A stretch of 64,000 nt of DNA, from contig CAYRRR010000002.1 of NCBI GenBank assembly GCA_964426755.1, positions 1,459-65,458 of the forward strand, in the 5' to 3' direction. The DNA comes from an uncultured Candidatus Saccharibacteria bacterium. Lineage in GTDB: Bacteria; Patescibacteriota; Saccharimonadia; Saccharimonadales; JAGQNJ01. Position numbers and translations under genes: made by a program. The notes under the pieces are model-generated. The model saw nothing but the letters and a program-made list of their open reading frames with translations, did not search any database and was not told the origin of the DNA. Positions 16,983 to 20,734 of the stretch are shown piece by piece; positions within the stretch are counted from its first letter, which is position 1, and the number at the start of each line of letters is the position of its first letter.

Positions 16983-17252
16983 ATGAAAGTGGTTATGTTG
17001 TATCGGCCAAAGTCAGAGTTTGCACGCGGTGCAGAAGAATATATACGTGAGTTTAAGCGTCGTACGCTTAAACATATCGAAATGGTAAATATAGATACAC
17101 CAGAAGGGGTGCGGATGGCGCAGCTCTATGGTGTTATGGATCATCCGGCTTTTATAGCGATTGCTGAAGATGGTAAGTTGCTGAATGCTTGGGCGGGCAA
17201 ACCATTACCGATTATGAACGAATTAACAGCGTACGCTCAAGAGTCTCGCTAA
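16983..17252 (+). CDS. NrdH/glutaredoxin-like thioredoxin-fold protein lacking the CxxC active site
   Basis: Whole-length similarity in pattern to NrdH (EMVNIDTPEGVRMAQLYG...PAFIAIAEDGK). The redox CxxC position reads PKSEFA and the protein has no cysteines. Confidence 0.5.
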   Translation: MKVVMLYRPKSEFARGAEEYIREFKRRTLKHIEMVNIDTPEGVRMAQLYGVMDHPAFIAIAEDGKLLNAWAGKPLPIMNELTAYAQESR

Positions 17253-17255
17253 TAC

Positions 17256-17284
17256 TTGAGCATTACCCCTGTTTTTGATATAAT
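17256..17284 (+). promoter_or_regulatory. Sigma-70-type promoter for the T-box leader/cupin-ileS operon
   Basis: TTGAGC, 17-nt spacer, TATAAT. Confidence 0.5.
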
Positions 17285-17290
17285 AATAGT

Positions 17291-17482
17291 ATAAATGCGT
17301 TCAGGCTATTGCCTGATGAGCGGCTATCAACCGTGAAGCAGCGAGAAGAAATCATCAGAGAGTAGACCTCGCCGGGAGCGCCCGTAACAGCAGTAAGTAA
17401 GCGTCAAAAGAATCGTCTCTTTTGGAAGCCAGATGGTACCGCCCCTCGGGGTTCTGGCAGCCGGAAGAGGCGATTTTGTTTT
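17291..17482 (+). promoter_or_regulatory. Candidate T-box riboswitch leader (Ile specifier) for cupin-ileS
   Basis: Antiterminator: helix A1 GCCAGA (17428-33)/UCUGGC (17453-58), 7-nt bulge UGGUACC (17434-40), helix A2 GCCCCUCGGGGU. Alternative terminator: CGCCCCUC (17440-47)/GAGGCG (17467-72) plus U-run 17474-82. AUC in the context AAGAA-AUC-A at 17351-53. Confidence 0.5.
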
Positions 17483-17498
17483 AAGAAAGGCATCAAGG

Positions 17499-17846
17499 AT
17501 GAAAAAGTGGTCAGATGAAGAAGGAGTAGAGTTTCGTAATAGTAATCTCTGCTATGGTCGAGAATATAATCCTGGAACTGGAAAGGTTGATATAGCCAAA
17601 ATCTTTATACGTGGACGTTATCCCGAGACTGGATGGGGCTACCTTGAAGAGTCGCATGAAATGGCGGCAGTAGTAAAGGGTGCAGGCTATATTGAGATAA
17701 AGGATGGCGAGCGAGTGCAGTTAGTTGCTGGTGATGTAGTTTATATAGAGCCAAAGGAAAGATTTTGCTGGGGAGGTGAAATGGATATGATCGTTCCTTG
17801 TAGCCCAGCCTTTGATCCCGATAAGCACAAACTGGAGAAAGAATAA
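17499..17846 (+). CDS. Cupin-domain protein
   Basis: Cupin beta-barrel pattern (GYIEIKDGERVQLVAGDVVYIEP). Its TAA stop overlaps the ileS ATG (TAATG). Confidence 0.6.
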   Translation: MKKWSDEEGVEFRNSNLCYGREYNPGTGKVDIAKIFIRGRYPETGWGYLEESHEMAAVVKGAGYIEIKDGERVQLVAGDVVYIEPKERFCWGGEMDMIVPCSPAFDPDKHKLEKE

Positions 17847-20734
17847 TGAAGTTTAAGTCAGGAACACGACGAAAACCAATTGAGTACGAAAAAGATTGGG
17901 TAGAGCGTTGGAAGAAGAGCAAAACATTCGAAAAGTCTGTCGAAAATCGTCCAGCCGACAATGCCTACGTGTTTTACGACGGCCCTCCATTTATAACTGG
18001 AGTACCACACCACGGAACGCTACTTAGTAGCATCATAAAAGACGCTGTACCGCGCTATTGGACCATGAAAGGTAAGCGCGTGGAGCGTGTCTGGGGGTGG
18101 GACACGCACGGATTACCGGCAGAAGTGTTTACCGAGAAAAAGCTTGGCATTAAAGATCGCCGAGATATTGGTACAAAAATTAGCTTAGAAGACTACATTA
18201 AAACAGCTCGCGAAAACATGATTGTAACCGGTGGGCTCTGGGAAGAGTATGTCGACAGAATCGGCCGCTGGGTTAATTTTAAGGGTGCCTATAAAACCAT
18301 GGATAAGGAATACATGGAAAGTATTTGGTGGGCATTCAAAACGCTGTACGAAAAAGGCAAGATTTATGAAGGTGAACGTGTTTTGATGTACTGCACGCGT
18401 GATGCTACTCCTCTTTCTAAGGCAGAAGTCACTATGGATGCCGGTGCGTACCAAGATGTCACCGACCCAAGTGTGTATGTTAAGTTTAAGCTAAAAGAGT
18501 CTGACGAATATTTACTGGCATGGACTACAACACCGTGGACGTTACCGGGCAATACTGCTGTAGCGGTTAATAAAGATTTAACGTACGCGAGGGTCAAAGT
18601 AGGTGATGACACATTGATCTTGGCTGAGGAGCTTTTGTCCAAGGTGCTAACAGACGAGAAGCACAAACCACTTGAGTTTAAGTTACTGGGCAAATTAAAA
18701 GGCAGTAAATTAGTCGGCAAAAAATACGAACCATTATTTACAAATCGTGGCAAACATGCACACCAGATTTGGCATGCAGATTATGTAAGCGCAGAAGATG
18801 GCACCGGGATAGTGCACCTTGCGCCAGCGTATGGTGAGGAAGACTTTGAGCTAGCTCAAGACAACAAGGTGCCGGTTGTACATGTACTAGATGAGAGCGG
18901 CATCTACACAGAAGGCGACTGGAAAGGTGAAAACGTATGGGAGATTAACAAAACTATCGCAAAAGACCTACGTGATCAGGGTGTGGTCTGGAAGATTGAC
19001 TACATTCGCCATAGTTATCCGCATTGTCATCGATGTAACACGCGGTTGATGTATCGCGCACACCCCAGCTGGTTCTTCGACGTTCAAGGCCAGAAAGAAG
19101 CAATGTTGGCACAAAATACAGAGGTAATTAACTGGTATCCTCCTCATCTTAAGCATGGCCGTTTCGAGAAAAATATATTGGCTGCACCGGATTGGAATCT
19201 AAGTCGTGACCGCTTTTGGGCTACCGCGATGCCAGTTTGGAAGAGCGAAGACGGGGACATAAAGGTTATAGGTAGTTATGCTGAACTTAAAGATTTGAGT
19301 GGCGTTGAGCTGGAGGACTATCATCGTCCGTGGGTAGATGAAGTAGAATTTGACTATGAAGGCAAGCACTACAAGCGAATAGATAAAGTGCTGGACGGAT
19401 GGTTTGAAAGCGGTAGTATGCCGTTTGCCCAGTTTCATTATCCGTTTGAAAACAAAGAAAAGTTTGAGGCGAACTTCCCAGGCGATTTTATTGCAGAGTA
19501 TATCGGCCAGGTTCGAGCCTGGTTTTATTACCTGCATGTAGTTAATGTTGGGCTTTTTGGCAAAGCGCCATTTAAAAATGTCGTTACCACCGGAAACTTG
19601 ATGGGGAATGATGGTTATAAGCTAAGTAAATCTCGTGGCAACTACACGGATCCTATGGAAGTTATGGACAGGTACTCAGCAGATGCCGAGCGCTTTTTGC
19701 TGTTGAGCTCTCCTGTACTCAAAGCAGAAGATTACAGTCTGCAAGATAAAGACATTGGCGATGTTGCGCGCAAGCTTAATATGATCTGGAATATGTACGA
19801 CTTCTTTACCATGTATGCAGAGGTAGATGGTTGGGAATTTGACCCCAAGCAGCAATCAGTACTTGCGCTGGAGGACCTGGCTAATCCATTAGACAAATGG
19901 ATTGTTTCACGCCTGCACCAGCTTACTGACCATGTTACCAAGTACATGGAAGAGTACAATTTGCCTGAAGCACTGAGCGAATTCATGCCCTTTATTGATG
20001 ATGCATCAAATTGGTACGTGCGCCGATCCCGACGACGTTTCTGGAAAAGCGGAGATGATGCCGACAAAAGCGATGCGTATCGAACGCTGCATTATGTCTT
20101 ATACCGTTTGAGCATAGTTCTAGCACCATTTACACCGTTTTTGGCTGAAGAGCTGTATCAAAAGCTAGGGGGAGATGCAGAATCAGTTCACCTACTTGAT
20201 TGGCCATCTGGCGGCCAGGTTGATGAACTGGTTATAGATGATATGGCGAGATTGCGCGAAATCATCACTGACGGTCTATCACAAAGAGCTGCAGCAGGGA
20301 TTAAGGTGCGCCAGCCTTTAAAGAAGATTACTGCCAATACTTCTGATGCAGCATTGCTTAATAAGTACGAAGGCATTGTTAAGGAAGAGCTAAATGTTAA
20401 GATGATCGAAGAAATAAGTAGTAAAAGCTTGAAAAAACCGCTCATTGATCTTTTGGCTACACCCGAACTTAAACGCGAGGGAATGATGCGAGAAGTAGTT
20501 CGGCAAGTGCAAAACGCTCGCAAACAAGCAGAGCTTAACGTTGATGATCGCATTTTGCTCTCTTTGCAAACGAATGACACTACATTACAGCAAGCCATTA
20601 AAGATCATAAAGAAACAATCATGAACGAAACATTAGCTGTCAAGCTTGACGCAACGCTTAGTTCACCACAGGCACATAAAGAAGATACAAAAGTTGAAGG
20701 AGCCGATTTAACTATAATGCTTGCGCTTGCATAA
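17846..20734 (+). CDS. ileS: Isoleucyl-tRNA synthetase (type 2-like, no C-terminal Zn finger)
   Basis: HIGH-region PPFITGVPHHGT, IleS signature GWDTHGLPAE and KMSKS variant YKLSKSRGN. The leucine/valine enzymes have different signatures. Confidence 0.82.
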   Translation: MKFKSGTRRKPIEYEKDWVERWKKSKTFEKSVENRPADNAYVFYDGPPFITGVPHHGTLLSSIIKDAVPRYWTMKGKRVERVWGWDTHGLPAEVFTEKKLGIKDRRDIGTKISLEDYIKTARENMIVTGGLWEEYVDRIGRWVNFKGAYKTMDKEYMESIWWAFKTLYEKGKIYEGERVLMYCTRDATPLSKAEVTMDAGAYQDVTDPSVYVKFKLKESDEYLLAWTTTPWTLPGNTAVAVNKDLTYARVKVGDDTLILAEELLSKVLTDEKHKPLEFKLLGKLKGSKLVGKKYEPLFTNRGKHAHQIWHADYVSAEDGTGIVHLAPAYGEEDFELAQDNKVPVVHVLDESGIYTEGDWKGENVWEINKTIAKDLRDQGVVWKIDYIRHSYPHCHRCNTRLMYRAHPSWFFDVQGQKEAMLAQNTEVINWYPPHLKHGRFEKNILAAPDWNLSRDRFWATAMPVWKSEDGDIKVIGSYAELKDLSGVELEDYHRPWVDEVEFDYEGKHYKRIDKVLDGWFESGSMPFAQFHYPFENKEKFEANFPGDFIAEYIGQVRAWFYYLHVVNVGLFGKAPFKNVVTTGNLMGNDGYKLSKSRGNYTDPMEVMDRYSADAERFLLLSSPVLKAEDYSLQDKDIGDVARKLNMIWNMYDFFTMYAEVDGWEFDPKQQSVLALEDLANPLDKWIVSRLHQLTDHVTKYMEEYNLPEALSEFMPFIDDASNWYVRRSRRRFWKSGDDADKSDAYRTLHYVLYRLSIVLAPFTPFLAEELYQKLGGDAESVHLLDWPSGGQVDELVIDDMARLREIITDGLSQRAAAGIKVRQPLKKITANTSDAALLNKYEGIVKEELNVKMIEEISSKSLKKPLIDLLATPELKREGMMREVVRQVQNARKQAELNVDDRILLSLQTNDTTLQQAIKDHKETIMNETLAVKLDATLSSPQAHKEDTKVEGADLTIMLALA

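What the first reader, a model, noticed from the sequence alone, without database searches (positions are those of the whole stretch)
17256..17848. T-box-type leader with canonical UGGUACC antiterminator bulge controlling a cupin gene translationally coupled to ileS
Downstream of a TTGAGC-17-TATAAT promoter, the leader can form helix A1 GCCAGA/UCUGGC around a 7-nt bulge UGGUACC (the T-box UGGN-ACC that pairs the tRNA NCCA end; N=U fits discriminator A73 of tRNA-Ile). It then forms a 4-bp A2 helix with a CUCG loop. A mutually exclusive hairpin CGCCCCUC/GAGGCG followed by AUUUUGUUUU overlaps it, giving classic terminator versus antiterminator logic. An AUC codon sits in an AAGAA-AUC-A context (17351-53), resembling the Specifier-loop consensus. 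A second AUC is at 17412-14. Stem I looks short, reminiscent of the ultrashort Stem I ileS T-boxes described in Actinobacteria. Unusually, a cupin ORF sits between the leader and ileS with a TAATG overlap, so the cupin is co-regulated by Ile-tRNA charging.
Basis: partly seen in the sequence, partly recalled or inferred. Interest (0 to 1): 0.65.

Follow-up and report, generated by a model that had tools for sequence, protein, structure and literature searches.

The report
Unusual tRNA-sensing switch before ileS
The leader in front of the isoleucyl-tRNA synthetase operon of this Saccharibacteria (TM7) genome is a real T-box, an RNA that senses uncharged tRNA-Ile. It is an undescribed variant: its codon-presenting arm is very short, and its transcription terminator encloses the tRNA-end-binding element instead of competing with it.

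Summary
Two key details are wrong.

**Evidence that it is real**
- A covariance model built here finds one copy upstream of ileS in 78 of 80 related Saccharibacteria loci. It finds one copy in the window (146.7 bits).
- Covariation supports every helix: 95% of cells paired, 35 of 37 pairs with two-sided changes, 0 of 500 shuffles as good.

- The true Specifier is the invariant AUC at 17326-28, in a 7-nt apical loop of a very short Stem I. It is not 17351-53, which lies in a variable part of Stem II.
- The proposed terminator CGCCCCUC/GAGGCG pairs no better than shuffled columns.

**The conserved terminator**
- It is a long hairpin (17411-17475 plus a U run) that contains the intact A1/UGGUACC/A2 element.
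- Its 5' strand is the loop and 3' strand of Stem III, so Stem III and the terminator base are the competing structures.

**Relation to known T-boxes**
- Rfam's T-box model misses the window and 16 relatives.
- The decoding half resembles the translational ileS T-boxes of Actinobacteria, but here the output is transcription termination.

**The cupin**
- It is one of many unrelated genes found in the slot between the T-box and ileS.

Verdict: a new variant of a known kind, supported by computation only.

The parts
17256..17284 (+). Promoter-like site TTGAGC-17-TATAAT with a TG extension. The implied transcript start is about 17291, about 5 nt before the T-box basal helix.
   Evidence: 10 of 12 matches. 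53 of 76 relatives have TANAAT within 80 nt upstream of the element, 21 of them with TG. None of 76 control segments inside coding sequence does. The function is inferred.
17296..17340 (+). Stem I module. It consists of basal helix UGC 17296-98 / GCA 17338-40, an inserted hairpin 17302-15 (optional in relatives), tandem G.A/A.G (GA 17318-19 with GA 17335-36, a K-turn-like 'GA motif'), a 4-bp helix 17320-23/17331-34, and a 7-nt apical loop CUAUCAA 17324-30.
   Evidence: The 4-bp helix pairs in 99.7-100% of cells and all 4 pairs covary. The basal triplet is complementary in 38 of 61 relatives, against 11.4 +/- 2.8 when partners are permuted; pair types include UCC/GGA, UGC/GCA, GAC/GUC and AGC/GCU. 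The K-turn assignment is by motif only.
17326..17328 (+). Specifier codon AUC (Ile), followed by purine A17329, in the centre of the apical loop.
   Evidence: Every leader examined with an identifiable Stem I has a 4-bp hairpin with the loop NNAUCNN. A11, U12 and C13 are invariant columns in A1.
17341..17372 (+). Stem II.
   Evidence: The base helix pairs in 97-98% of cells and all 5 pairs covary. RNAalifold also predicts the distal helix. The conserved strands are visible.
17373..17392 (+). Stem IIA/B pseudoknot. IIA is 17373-75/17382-84. IIB is 17379-81/17390-92, only 2 Watson-Crick pairs in the window. It includes the F-box-like CCGUAAC at 17382-88.
   Evidence: An anchored search of 72 relatives gives a mean IIB length of 3.74 bp, against 2.96 +/- 0.08 for permuted partners (maximum 3.18). 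Many different complementary pairs occur, such as AGCU/AGCU, CGCU/AGCG, ACUCG/CGAGU and CCACU/AGUGG.
17399..17427 (+). Discriminator 5' half. It consists of purine string AAGCG 17399-403 (RRRxG), Stem III 17404-11/17418-25 with loop AUCGUC, and then AA 17426-27.
   Evidence: Stem III pairs in 97.5% and 90.2% of cells, with 7 of 8 pairs covarying (python count). R-A-G-N-G is present in 40 of 40 main-group relatives. AA is present in most. The motif is as defined in PMC7583486.
17428..17458 (+). Antiterminator core. It consists of A1 17428-33/17453-58, the T-box bulge UGGUACC 17434-40, and A2 17441-44/17449-52 closed by G17441.U17452.
   Evidence: A1 pairs in 98.9-100% of cells and A2 in 98.7-98.8%, with extensive compensatory changes. 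The bulge is displayed in the MFE of nearly all relatives.
17411..17482 (+). Intrinsic terminator. The lower stem pairs 17411-25 (Stem III loop and 3' strand) with 17461-75. It encloses the intact A1/bulge/A2 across an AA/AG internal loop and is followed by AUUUUGUUUU at 17473-82.
   Evidence: MFE is -41.2 kcal/mol, z -5.5. The lower stem pairs in 89.6% of cells with 13 of 15 pairs covarying on the MAFFT alignment, and in 93-95% on the model-fitted alignment. RNAalifold predicts it independently. A U run of at least 4 is found at the hairpin end in 75 of 79 relatives.
17499..17846 (+). Cupin-domain ORF (115 aa), the first gene of the controlled transcript.
   Evidence: Pfam Cupin_3 7e-6 and Cupin_2 1e-5. 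Homologues lie in the same slot in L011 (64% identity) and L019 (48%).
17846..20734 (+). ileS, a type-2 isoleucyl-tRNA synthetase. Its start overlaps the cupin stop (TAATG).
   Evidence: Pfam tRNA-synt_1, Anticodon_1 and DUF5915. The best PDB matches are 8c8u and 1ile; 1ffy is much weaker. The type-2 label for those entries comes from my own knowledge.

Best explanation
Window 17296-17482 is a tRNA-Ile-responsive T-box riboswitch that controls the cupin-ileS transcript by transcription attenuation.

**Decoding half**
- It has a K-turn-like base and a 4-bp Stem I with AUC-A in a 7-nt apical loop.
- It has a Stem II with S-turn-like strands and a IIA/B pseudoknot.
- Together these would bind the GAU anticodon.

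**Discriminator half**
- Its layout is AAGCG - Stem III - AA - A1 - UGGUACC - A2.
- It would capture an uncharged 3' end: the acceptor-end CCA plus the discriminator base, presumed to be A73.

**The switch**
- Unlike canonical T-boxes, the terminator does not use the 3' strands of A1/A2.
- The downstream strand Z (17461-75) displaces the Stem III 5' strand X (17404-11) from the shared strand Y (17411-25).
- This makes a long hairpin that still carries A1/bulge/A2 at its tip and abuts the U run.
[quoted passage not shown] Z then cannot invade before RNA polymerase passes the U run, giving read-through.
- With charged tRNA or none, Stem III is undocked and is displaced, giving termination.

**Shown here (computationally)**
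- All the helices and both alternative pairings are conserved and covary.
- The motifs are conserved.
- The link to ileS holds across the related loci.

**Inferred**
- tRNA binding, the direction of regulation, and the kinetic competition.
For: - Model R1 finds one copy on the ileS strand upstream of ileS in 78 of 80 related loci. It finds one copy in the window (146.7 bits) and nothing elsewhere.
- Structure support on 80 sequences: 95.1% of cells paired, 35 of 37 pairs with two-sided changes, 0 of 500 shuffles as good, and slid registers at 38-53%.
- The same holds on the unfitted MAFFT alignment (91.1%, 31 of 37 pairs) and in the independent RNAalifold prediction.
- The AUC is invariant in an NNAUCNN loop.
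- The RRRxG - Stem III - AA motif, the 7-nt bulge and the G.U closing pair of A2 match the discriminator definition in PMC7583486.
- Stem III (X:Y) and the terminator base (Z:Y) both covary on the same Y strand. Clades with wholly different sequence, such as CUUCAGAG / CUCAGAAG / CUUCUGAG, keep both pairings.
- Folding is ordered. 17399-17460 gives Stem III plus A1/A2 (-22.0 kcal/mol). Adding 17461-82 gives the nested hairpin (-41.2, z -5.5).
- Medians over the relatives are -19.6 and -33.2 kcal/mol.
- A U run sits at the hairpin end in 75 of 79 relatives.
- Single-molecule work on the M. tuberculosis ileS T-box reports that charged tRNA leaves Stem III 'away from' the antisequestrator (PMC12647780). 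This gives a physical basis for reading charge through Stem III.
Against: - There is no experiment of any kind.
- Rfam's T-box model gives no hit, even at E <= 10 on 361 nt.
- No tRNA-Ile gene is available to check the GAU anticodon or A73.
- A1/A2 persist in the OFF fold, so nothing in the secondary structure alone forbids tRNA 3'-end pairing in the terminator state. The coupling through Stem III is an inference.
- Five to nine relatives lack or shorten Stem III yet keep a nested terminator.
- Some bulges read UGGUAUC or UGGUAAC, or have N = A or C.
- The window's IIB helix is only 2 bp.
- Generic hairpin-plus-U terminators are barely enriched in this genome.
Confidence: 0.75

Rival explanations
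1. The terminator CGCCCCUC(17440-47)/GAGGCG(17467-72) forms from the 3' part of the T-box, A2 and A1, and excludes the antiterminator.
For: The pairing can be drawn in the window. Three distant relatives (L047, L049, L060) do have terminators of this canonical kind.
Against: - It pairs in 55.5% of cells against 56.4% for shuffled columns, and 394 of 500 shuffles reach it.
- It is absent from the MFE, and segment 17437-82 has z +0.6.
- In relatives the region 3' of UGGN folds to a median of only -9 kcal/mol, mostly the A2 hairpin itself, against -33 for the nested hairpin.
Confidence: 0.04
2. It is a T-box, but the long hairpin is not displaced by Stem III. tRNA binds the bulge on the preformed long hairpin and blocks termination in another way, for example by steric hindrance at the RNA exit channel or by melting the lower stem from above.
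For: The bulge and A1/A2 are intact in the terminator fold. The Stem III-less relatives still have a nested terminator.
Against: - Stem III pairing and the RRRxG/AA flanks are conserved and covary, although they cannot coexist with the lower stem.
- In studied T-boxes the antiterminator without Stem III does not bind tRNA appreciably (PMC7583486).
Confidence: 0.1
3. The output is not transcription termination. It is translational control or RNA processing, for example RNase III cleavage of the long duplex, as in the actinobacterial translational ileS T-boxes.
For: - The decoding module is of the type known from translational T-boxes.
- One relative, L046, lacks the U run and could sequester a GGAGAG box with the A1 3' strand.
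- Generic terminators are only weakly enriched in the window.
Against: - The ribosome-binding region of the cupin (17484-98) lies after the U run and outside every conserved helix.
- U runs of 4-7 abut the hairpin in 75 of 79 relatives.
Confidence: 0.06
4. It is a conserved structured leader that no longer senses tRNA, or never did. Examples would be an IleRS-binding autoregulatory site or a constitutive attenuator.
For: There is no Rfam hit and no tRNA data.
Against: An invariant Ile codon in an anticodon-loop-sized loop, a UGGN bulge, and all accessory T-box motifs occur together in front of ileS in 78 of 80 related loci.
Confidence: 0.03

Closest known systems
Translational ileS T-boxes of Actinobacteria with 'ultrashort' Stem I (M. 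tuberculosis, N. farcinica, M. smegmatis; PDB 6UFG and 6UFM as cited in PMC7583486; Sherwood et al. 2015)
   Same: - Same regulated gene (type-2 ileS) and the same AUC specifier mounted in an apical Stem I loop followed by a purine.
- No elbow-binding distal platform.
- Stem II with an S-turn and a IIA/B pseudoknot.
- The RRRxG - Stem III - AA - A1 - UGGNACC - A2 discriminator.
   Different: - The output platform differs. Here a hairpin plus U run sits upstream of the ribosome-binding site, and there is no Shine-Dalgarno sequestrator.
- The competing strand is taken from Stem III, not from A1/A2.
- The host phylum is Saccharibacteria (CPR).
- No actinobacterial sequence was available, so the comparison is by motif, not by alignment.
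Canonical transcriptional T-boxes of Firmicutes (B. subtilis glyQS and tyrS; Rfam RF00230)
   Same: The logic is the same: uncharged tRNA favours read-through of an intrinsic terminator. The K-turn/GA motif, Specifier plus purine, the T-box bulge, the A1/A2 helices and a terminator more stable than the antiterminator are shared.
   Different: - There is no long Stem I, AG bulge or distal-loop platform. The review states these are generally required for transcriptional T-boxes.
- The terminator 5' strand is the Stem III loop and 3' strand, so A1/A2 survive in the OFF state. The canonical terminator uses the 3' strands of A1 and A2.
- It is not detected by RF00230.

Membership tests
T-box riboswitch (general) | Specifier codon matching the regulated aminoacyl-tRNA synthetase, presented by Stem I and followed by a purine | tested here: met
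   AUC-A lies at 17326-29 in the apical loop. AUC is invariant in relatives, and the next base is mostly A or G.
T-box riboswitch (general) | 7-nt bulge UGGNACC between helices A1 and A2 | tested here: met
   UGGUACC lies at 17434-40. A1 and A2 pair in 99-100% of cells with compensatory changes. Minor variants in relatives are UGGUAUC, UGGUAAC and N = A or C.
T-box riboswitch (general) | Discriminator motif 5'-RRRxG - Stem III - AA-3', with a G.U pair at the base of A2 (PMC7583486) | tested here: met
   AAGCG - Stem III - AA lies at 17399-17427, with G17441.U17452. RRRxG is present in 40 of 40 main-group relatives. G.U is present in 23 of 40; the others have A-U or U-A.
T-box riboswitch (general) | Stem II with an S-turn, plus a Stem IIA/B pseudoknot with an F-box | tested here: met
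   The conserved strands GAAGAA / AGUAGAC are present and the base helix covaries. The pseudoknot is supported at 3.74 bp against 2.96 +/- 0.08. The window's own IIB is only 2 bp.
T-box riboswitch (general) | K-turn (GA motif) at the base of Stem I | tested here: inconclusive
   A tandem GA/GA and a covarying basal helix are present: 38 of 61 relatives against 11.4 +/- 2.8 for permuted partners. An unconstrained test was uninformative. The 'bulge' carries an inserted hairpin in the window. No 3D test was done.
T-box riboswitch (general) | Match to the Rfam RF00230 covariance model at its gathering score | tested here: not met
   There are no hits in the window or in 16 related loci at the gathering score. 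There is no T-box hit at E <= 10 on 17200-17560.
T-box riboswitch (general) | Binding of uncharged cognate tRNA and tRNA-dependent switching | not testable with these tools
   This needs in vitro transcription or binding assays.
T-box riboswitch (general) | Base N of UGGN is complementary to the tRNA discriminator base | not testable with these tools
   There is no tRNA gene in the window and no tRNA-Ile gene in 60 loci. That A73 is general for bacterial tRNA-Ile is my own knowledge.
Canonical transcriptional T-box | Long Stem I with an AG bulge and distal loop (elbow-binding platform) | tested here: not met
   Stem I is a 4-bp helix with a 7-nt loop in the window and in all relatives.
Canonical transcriptional T-box | Terminator 5' strand formed by the 3' strands of A1/A2, excluding the antiterminator helices | tested here: not met
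   That pairing is at shuffle level. The conserved terminator nests A1/A2 and shares its 5' strand with Stem III.
Actinobacterial translational ileS T-box | Sequestrator helix occluding the Shine-Dalgarno sequence, with no terminator | tested here: not met
   The ribosome-binding region 17484-98 lies downstream of the U run and outside all conserved helices. A U run is present in 75 of 79 relatives.

The most novel reading that the evidence does not exclude
Saccharibacteria carry a previously undescribed T-box class across the sampled lineages. Transcription attenuation works without the tRNA-elbow platform, and the charge signal is read through strand exchange at Stem III. The terminator encloses, rather than dismantles, the acceptor-end-binding element. 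At least three different expression platforms sit on the same decoding module within these lineages: a nested terminator, a canonical terminator, and possibly a Shine-Dalgarno sequestrator.
Probability: 0.45. Interest if true: 0.75.

Novelty: new variant of a known kind. Interest (0 to 1): 0.6.

Why it matters
- **A rule is challenged.** T-boxes are the textbook tRNA-sensing riboswitch and an antibiotic target. Current reviews state that transcriptional T-boxes generally need a long Stem I that grips the tRNA elbow. They also state that the terminator forms from the A1/A2 3' strands. This element appears to break both rules while keeping every tRNA-contacting motif.
- **It gives a test system.** It would be a natural system to ask whether elbow contact is needed for kinetic (co-transcriptional) control. 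It would also test whether Stem III docking is the primary read-out of aminoacylation, an idea raised by recent single-molecule work.
- **It extends the range of T-boxes.** T-boxes would reach into the reduced genomes of CPR bacteria, which the standard Rfam model misses. Surveys based on that model would undercount them.
- **It bears on T-box evolution.** The decoding half resembles that of Actinobacteria.

Tried and rejected
- **Rfam scans.** No hits at the gathering score on the whole window or on 16 loci. No T-box hit at E <= 10 on 17200-17560. I read this as limited model reach, because a purpose-built model and covariation are decisive.
Tested on the alignment and rejected.
Rejected because these positions are not conserved.
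- **tRNA search.** The window and 60 loci held only tRNA-Thr and tRNA-Tyr, in L053.
- **Unconstrained basal-helix test.** Uninformative: 4.54 against 4.66 for permuted partners. It was replaced by an anchored test.
- **MAFFT alignment of the pseudoknot region.** It was out of register (IIA at 47.5% paired). It was replaced by an anchored search.
- **Literature.** No paper combined T-box with Saccharibacteria, Patescibacteria or Candidate Phyla Radiation, and a T-box / TM7 / isoleucyl-tRNA synthetase search listed nothing relevant to Saccharibacteria. Sherwood 2015 (PMC4313828) is not held. Vitreschak 2008 was not found. A sequence-string search returned only noise. Prior description elsewhere therefore cannot be excluded.
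- **Generic terminator scan.** Only weak enrichment.
- **Not used.** The metagenome scan, protein homology searches and structure prediction were not used, because they would not bear on the RNA question.

Full report
**Source and context.** The IleRS encoded at 17846-20734 has its closest relatives (57-72% identity) in Saccharibacteria (TM7, Patescibacteria) metagenome-assembled genomes. Eighty such loci were fetched as L001-L080. The enzyme is of the type-2 kind: its best solved relatives are 8c8u and 1ile, and 1ffy is far weaker. The type label for those entries is my own knowledge. The window holds no tRNA gene and no Rfam family at gathering score.

**Checking the observation.**
- The promoter-like site TTGAGC-17-TATAAT is at 17256-84.
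- A1 GCCAGA/UCUGGC surrounds UGGUACC (17434-40).
- A2 is 4 bp with a CUCG loop.
- AUUUUGUUUU is at 17473-82.
- The 115-aa cupin ORF (17499-17846) has a stop that overlaps the ileS ATG.

The site is not a chance match. It is the only place in the 64 kb where UGGNA(A/C/U)C is flanked by a 6-bp and a 4-bp helix.

It is also negative for 16 related loci.

**Comparative evidence that it is a real, conserved RNA.**
- A simple pattern search found GAUGGUACC with differing but complementary flanks upstream of ileS in most relatives.
- I aligned 40 leaders (A1), wrote the structure from the window sequence, and built covariance model R1.
- R1 finds one copy on the ileS strand upstream of ileS in 78 of 80 loci. 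The two loci without a hit, L075 and L077, hold little or no upstream sequence. R1 finds one copy in the window (17316-17478, 146.7 bits, E about 1e-29) and nothing else in 702 kb.
- On the unfitted MAFFT alignment, 91.1% of cells pair and 31 of 37 pairs show changes on both sides. None of 500 column shuffles does as well, and slid registers give 39-53%.
- On the 80-sequence model-fitted alignment the figures are 95.1% and 35 of 37 pairs.
- RNAalifold, given only the MAFFT alignment, predicts the same helices.

**Anatomy, 5' to 3' (window coordinates).**
- *Transcript start.* It is probably near 17291. TANAAT boxes lie at the equivalent place in 53 of 76 relatives and in none of 76 control segments inside coding sequence.
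- *Stem I base.* A basal helix UGC 17296-98 / GCA 17338-40 covaries in relatives (38 of 61 complementary against 11.4 +/- 2.8 permuted). It encloses an optional hairpin (17302-15) and a tandem GA/GA resembling the T-box GA (K-turn) motif.
- *Stem I proper.* It is only 4 bp (17320-23/17331-34) with the 7-nt loop CUAUCAA.
- *Specifier.* Every leader examined with an identifiable Stem I has the loop NNAUCNN with AUC invariant. The Specifier is therefore AUC 17326-28, followed by A17329.
- *Stem II.* The base helix 17341-45/17368-72 carries the conserved strands GAAGAA and AGUAGAC, which are S-turn-like.
- *Pseudoknot.* 17373-92 forms the IIA/B pseudoknot with the F-box-like CCGUAAC. The IIB pairing is supported by many different complementary pairs (mean 3.74 bp against 2.96 +/- 0.08 permuted). 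In the window itself it is only 2 bp.
- *Discriminator.* Then follow AAGCG (17399-403), Stem III (17404-11/17418-25), AA (17426-27), A1, the bulge, and A2 closed by G.U. This is the 5'-RRRxG - Stem III - AA-3' discriminator layout given in the review PMC7583486.

- The MFE of the region is one long hairpin. In it 17411-25 pairs with 17461-75, the AA/AG pair forms an internal loop, and A1/UGGUACC/A2 sit intact at the top.
- The hairpin runs straight into the U tract. Its energy is -41.2 kcal/mol with z -5.5.
- This lower stem is conserved and covaries: 13 of 15 pairs, with 89.6% of cells paired on the MAFFT alignment. It is the MFE in nearly all relatives.
- A U run of 4-7 follows it in 75 of 79 relatives.
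The segment that would contain it folds no better than random (z +0.6).

**What competes with what.**
- The 5' strand of the lower stem is the loop and 3' strand of Stem III (strand Y).
- Y pairs either with the Stem III 5' strand X (8-9 bp, 82-100% paired per position) or with the downstream strand Z (13-16 bp).
- Both pairings covary, including in clades where all three strands have changed completely. X and Z are therefore near-copies of each other.
- The transcript up to 17460 folds as Stem III plus A1/A2 (-22.0 kcal/mol). Adding Z flips it to the nested hairpin.
- Medians over the relatives are -19.6 kcal/mol for the antiterminator state and -33.2 for the terminator.

**Proposed mechanism.**
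- *Inferred.* Uncharged tRNA-Ile pairs its anticodon with AUC and its acceptor-end CCA plus discriminator base with UGGU. [quoted passage not shown] This protects X:Y from invasion by Z until the polymerase has passed the U run.
- *Inferred.* Without that lock, Z displaces X and transcription stops before the cupin.
- *Literature support.* Single-molecule work on the M. tuberculosis ileS T-box reports that charged tRNA leaves Stem III away from the antisequestrator (PMC12647780).
- *Shown here.* The conserved alternative structures, the motifs, and the genomic linkage.
- *Not shown.* tRNA binding, and the direction and size of regulation.

**Comparison with known T-boxes.**
- The decoding half matches the short-Stem-I ileS T-boxes of Actinobacteria, which have an apical Specifier, no elbow platform and an essential Stem II module. 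Those act on translation.
- Here the ribosome-binding region (17484-98) lies outside every conserved helix, and the output signal is a terminator.
[quoted passage not shown] It also states that the terminator forms from the 3' strands of A1 and A2. Neither holds here.
- I found no paper linking T-boxes with Saccharibacteria, Patescibacteria, CPR or TM7.
- TBDB was built with RF00230 plus an Actinobacteria-restricted model, so it probably lacks this class.
- The literature held is incomplete, so prior description cannot be excluded.

**Variation among relatives.**
- L047, L049 and L060 have canonical terminators that use the A2/A1 3' strands.
- L046 lacks the U run and may sequester a GGAGAG box.
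- L001, L003, L018, L025 and L052 lack Stem III, and their terminator 3' strand pairs with the purine-string segment.
- Bulge variants UGGUAUC and UGGUAAC occur, as do N = A or C.
- The Stem III-less forms are not explained by my model.

**The cupin.**
- Only 16 nt separate the U run from its ATG, and no + strand promoter-like site lies inside it. It is therefore almost certainly transcribed under T-box control, with ileS translationally coupled to it.
- It is not a conserved partner. Homologues occupy the slot only in L011 (64% identity) and L019 (48%).
- Most loci have 60-110 nt and no gene there.
- About 20 others carry unrelated genes: an EcoRI-type methylase with GmrSD/HNH, T5orf172, DUF5655, CAP, DUF4145, GNAT, NUDIX and Tag glycosylase.

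**Verdict.**
- The interpretation 'T-box controlling cupin-ileS' is right.
- The Specifier and the terminator/antiterminator logic are wrong as stated.
- The corrected structure is a new variant of a known kind: a transcriptional T-box with a minimal Stem I and a nested terminator that competes with Stem III. It is conserved across the related Saccharibacteria sampled.
- All of the evidence is computational.

Noticed in passing
window 17483-17846; L010, L011, L014, L019, L031, L056, L057, L060, L061, L067-L071, L073, L076, L080 between the T-box and ileS: The short spacer between the T-box terminator and ileS is a variable insertion slot. About 20 of 80 loci carry 1-3 unrelated accessory genes there. 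These include a cupin, an EcoRI-type methylase with GmrSD_N/HNH, T5orf172, DUF5655, CAP, DUF4145, GNAT, NUDIX and Tag glycosylase. The genes would all sit behind the tRNA-Ile-controlled terminator. In some loci ileS lies up to 2.8 kb from its T-box.
   Followed up: partly
L047:1999-2210, L049:2760-2985, L060:2284-2500: These distant relatives keep the same decoding module but have canonical terminators whose 5' strand is the A2/A1 3' strand. Expression platforms have therefore been exchanged within these lineages.
   Followed up: partly
L046:2783-3000: There is no U run after the hairpin. The A1 3' strand UCCGGC can pair with GCCGGA, which overlaps a GGAGAG box about 18 nt before the ileS ATG. 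This may be a translational (sequestrator) version.
   Followed up: no
L001, L003, L018, L025, L052 (reduced in L029, L035, L050, L051): These leaders lack Stem III. The purine string is followed directly by AA and A1, and the terminator 3' strand pairs with the purine-string segment. How these would be held ON is unclear.
   Followed up: no
L007, L056, L057, L080 (UGGUAUC); L031, L048, L053 (UGGUAAC); L016, L029, L050 (UGGAACC); L045 (UGGCACC): The T-box bulge varies in the normally conserved ACC and at the discriminator-pairing base N. Whether the tRNA-Ile of these genomes differs is unknown.
   Followed up: no
window 17302-17315: A small hairpin (C-AGGC-UAUU-GCCU-G) is inserted where the K-turn bulge of Stem I would be. 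It is present with different sequences in many relatives and absent in others, such as L009, L012 and L016. It may form a three-way K-junction.
   Followed up: partly
L033:2204-2447, L079:59-358, L043:2771-2977: Large insertions of 40-130 nt, themselves structured, lie in the Stem III loop region. The X, Y and Z strands are preserved.
   Followed up: no
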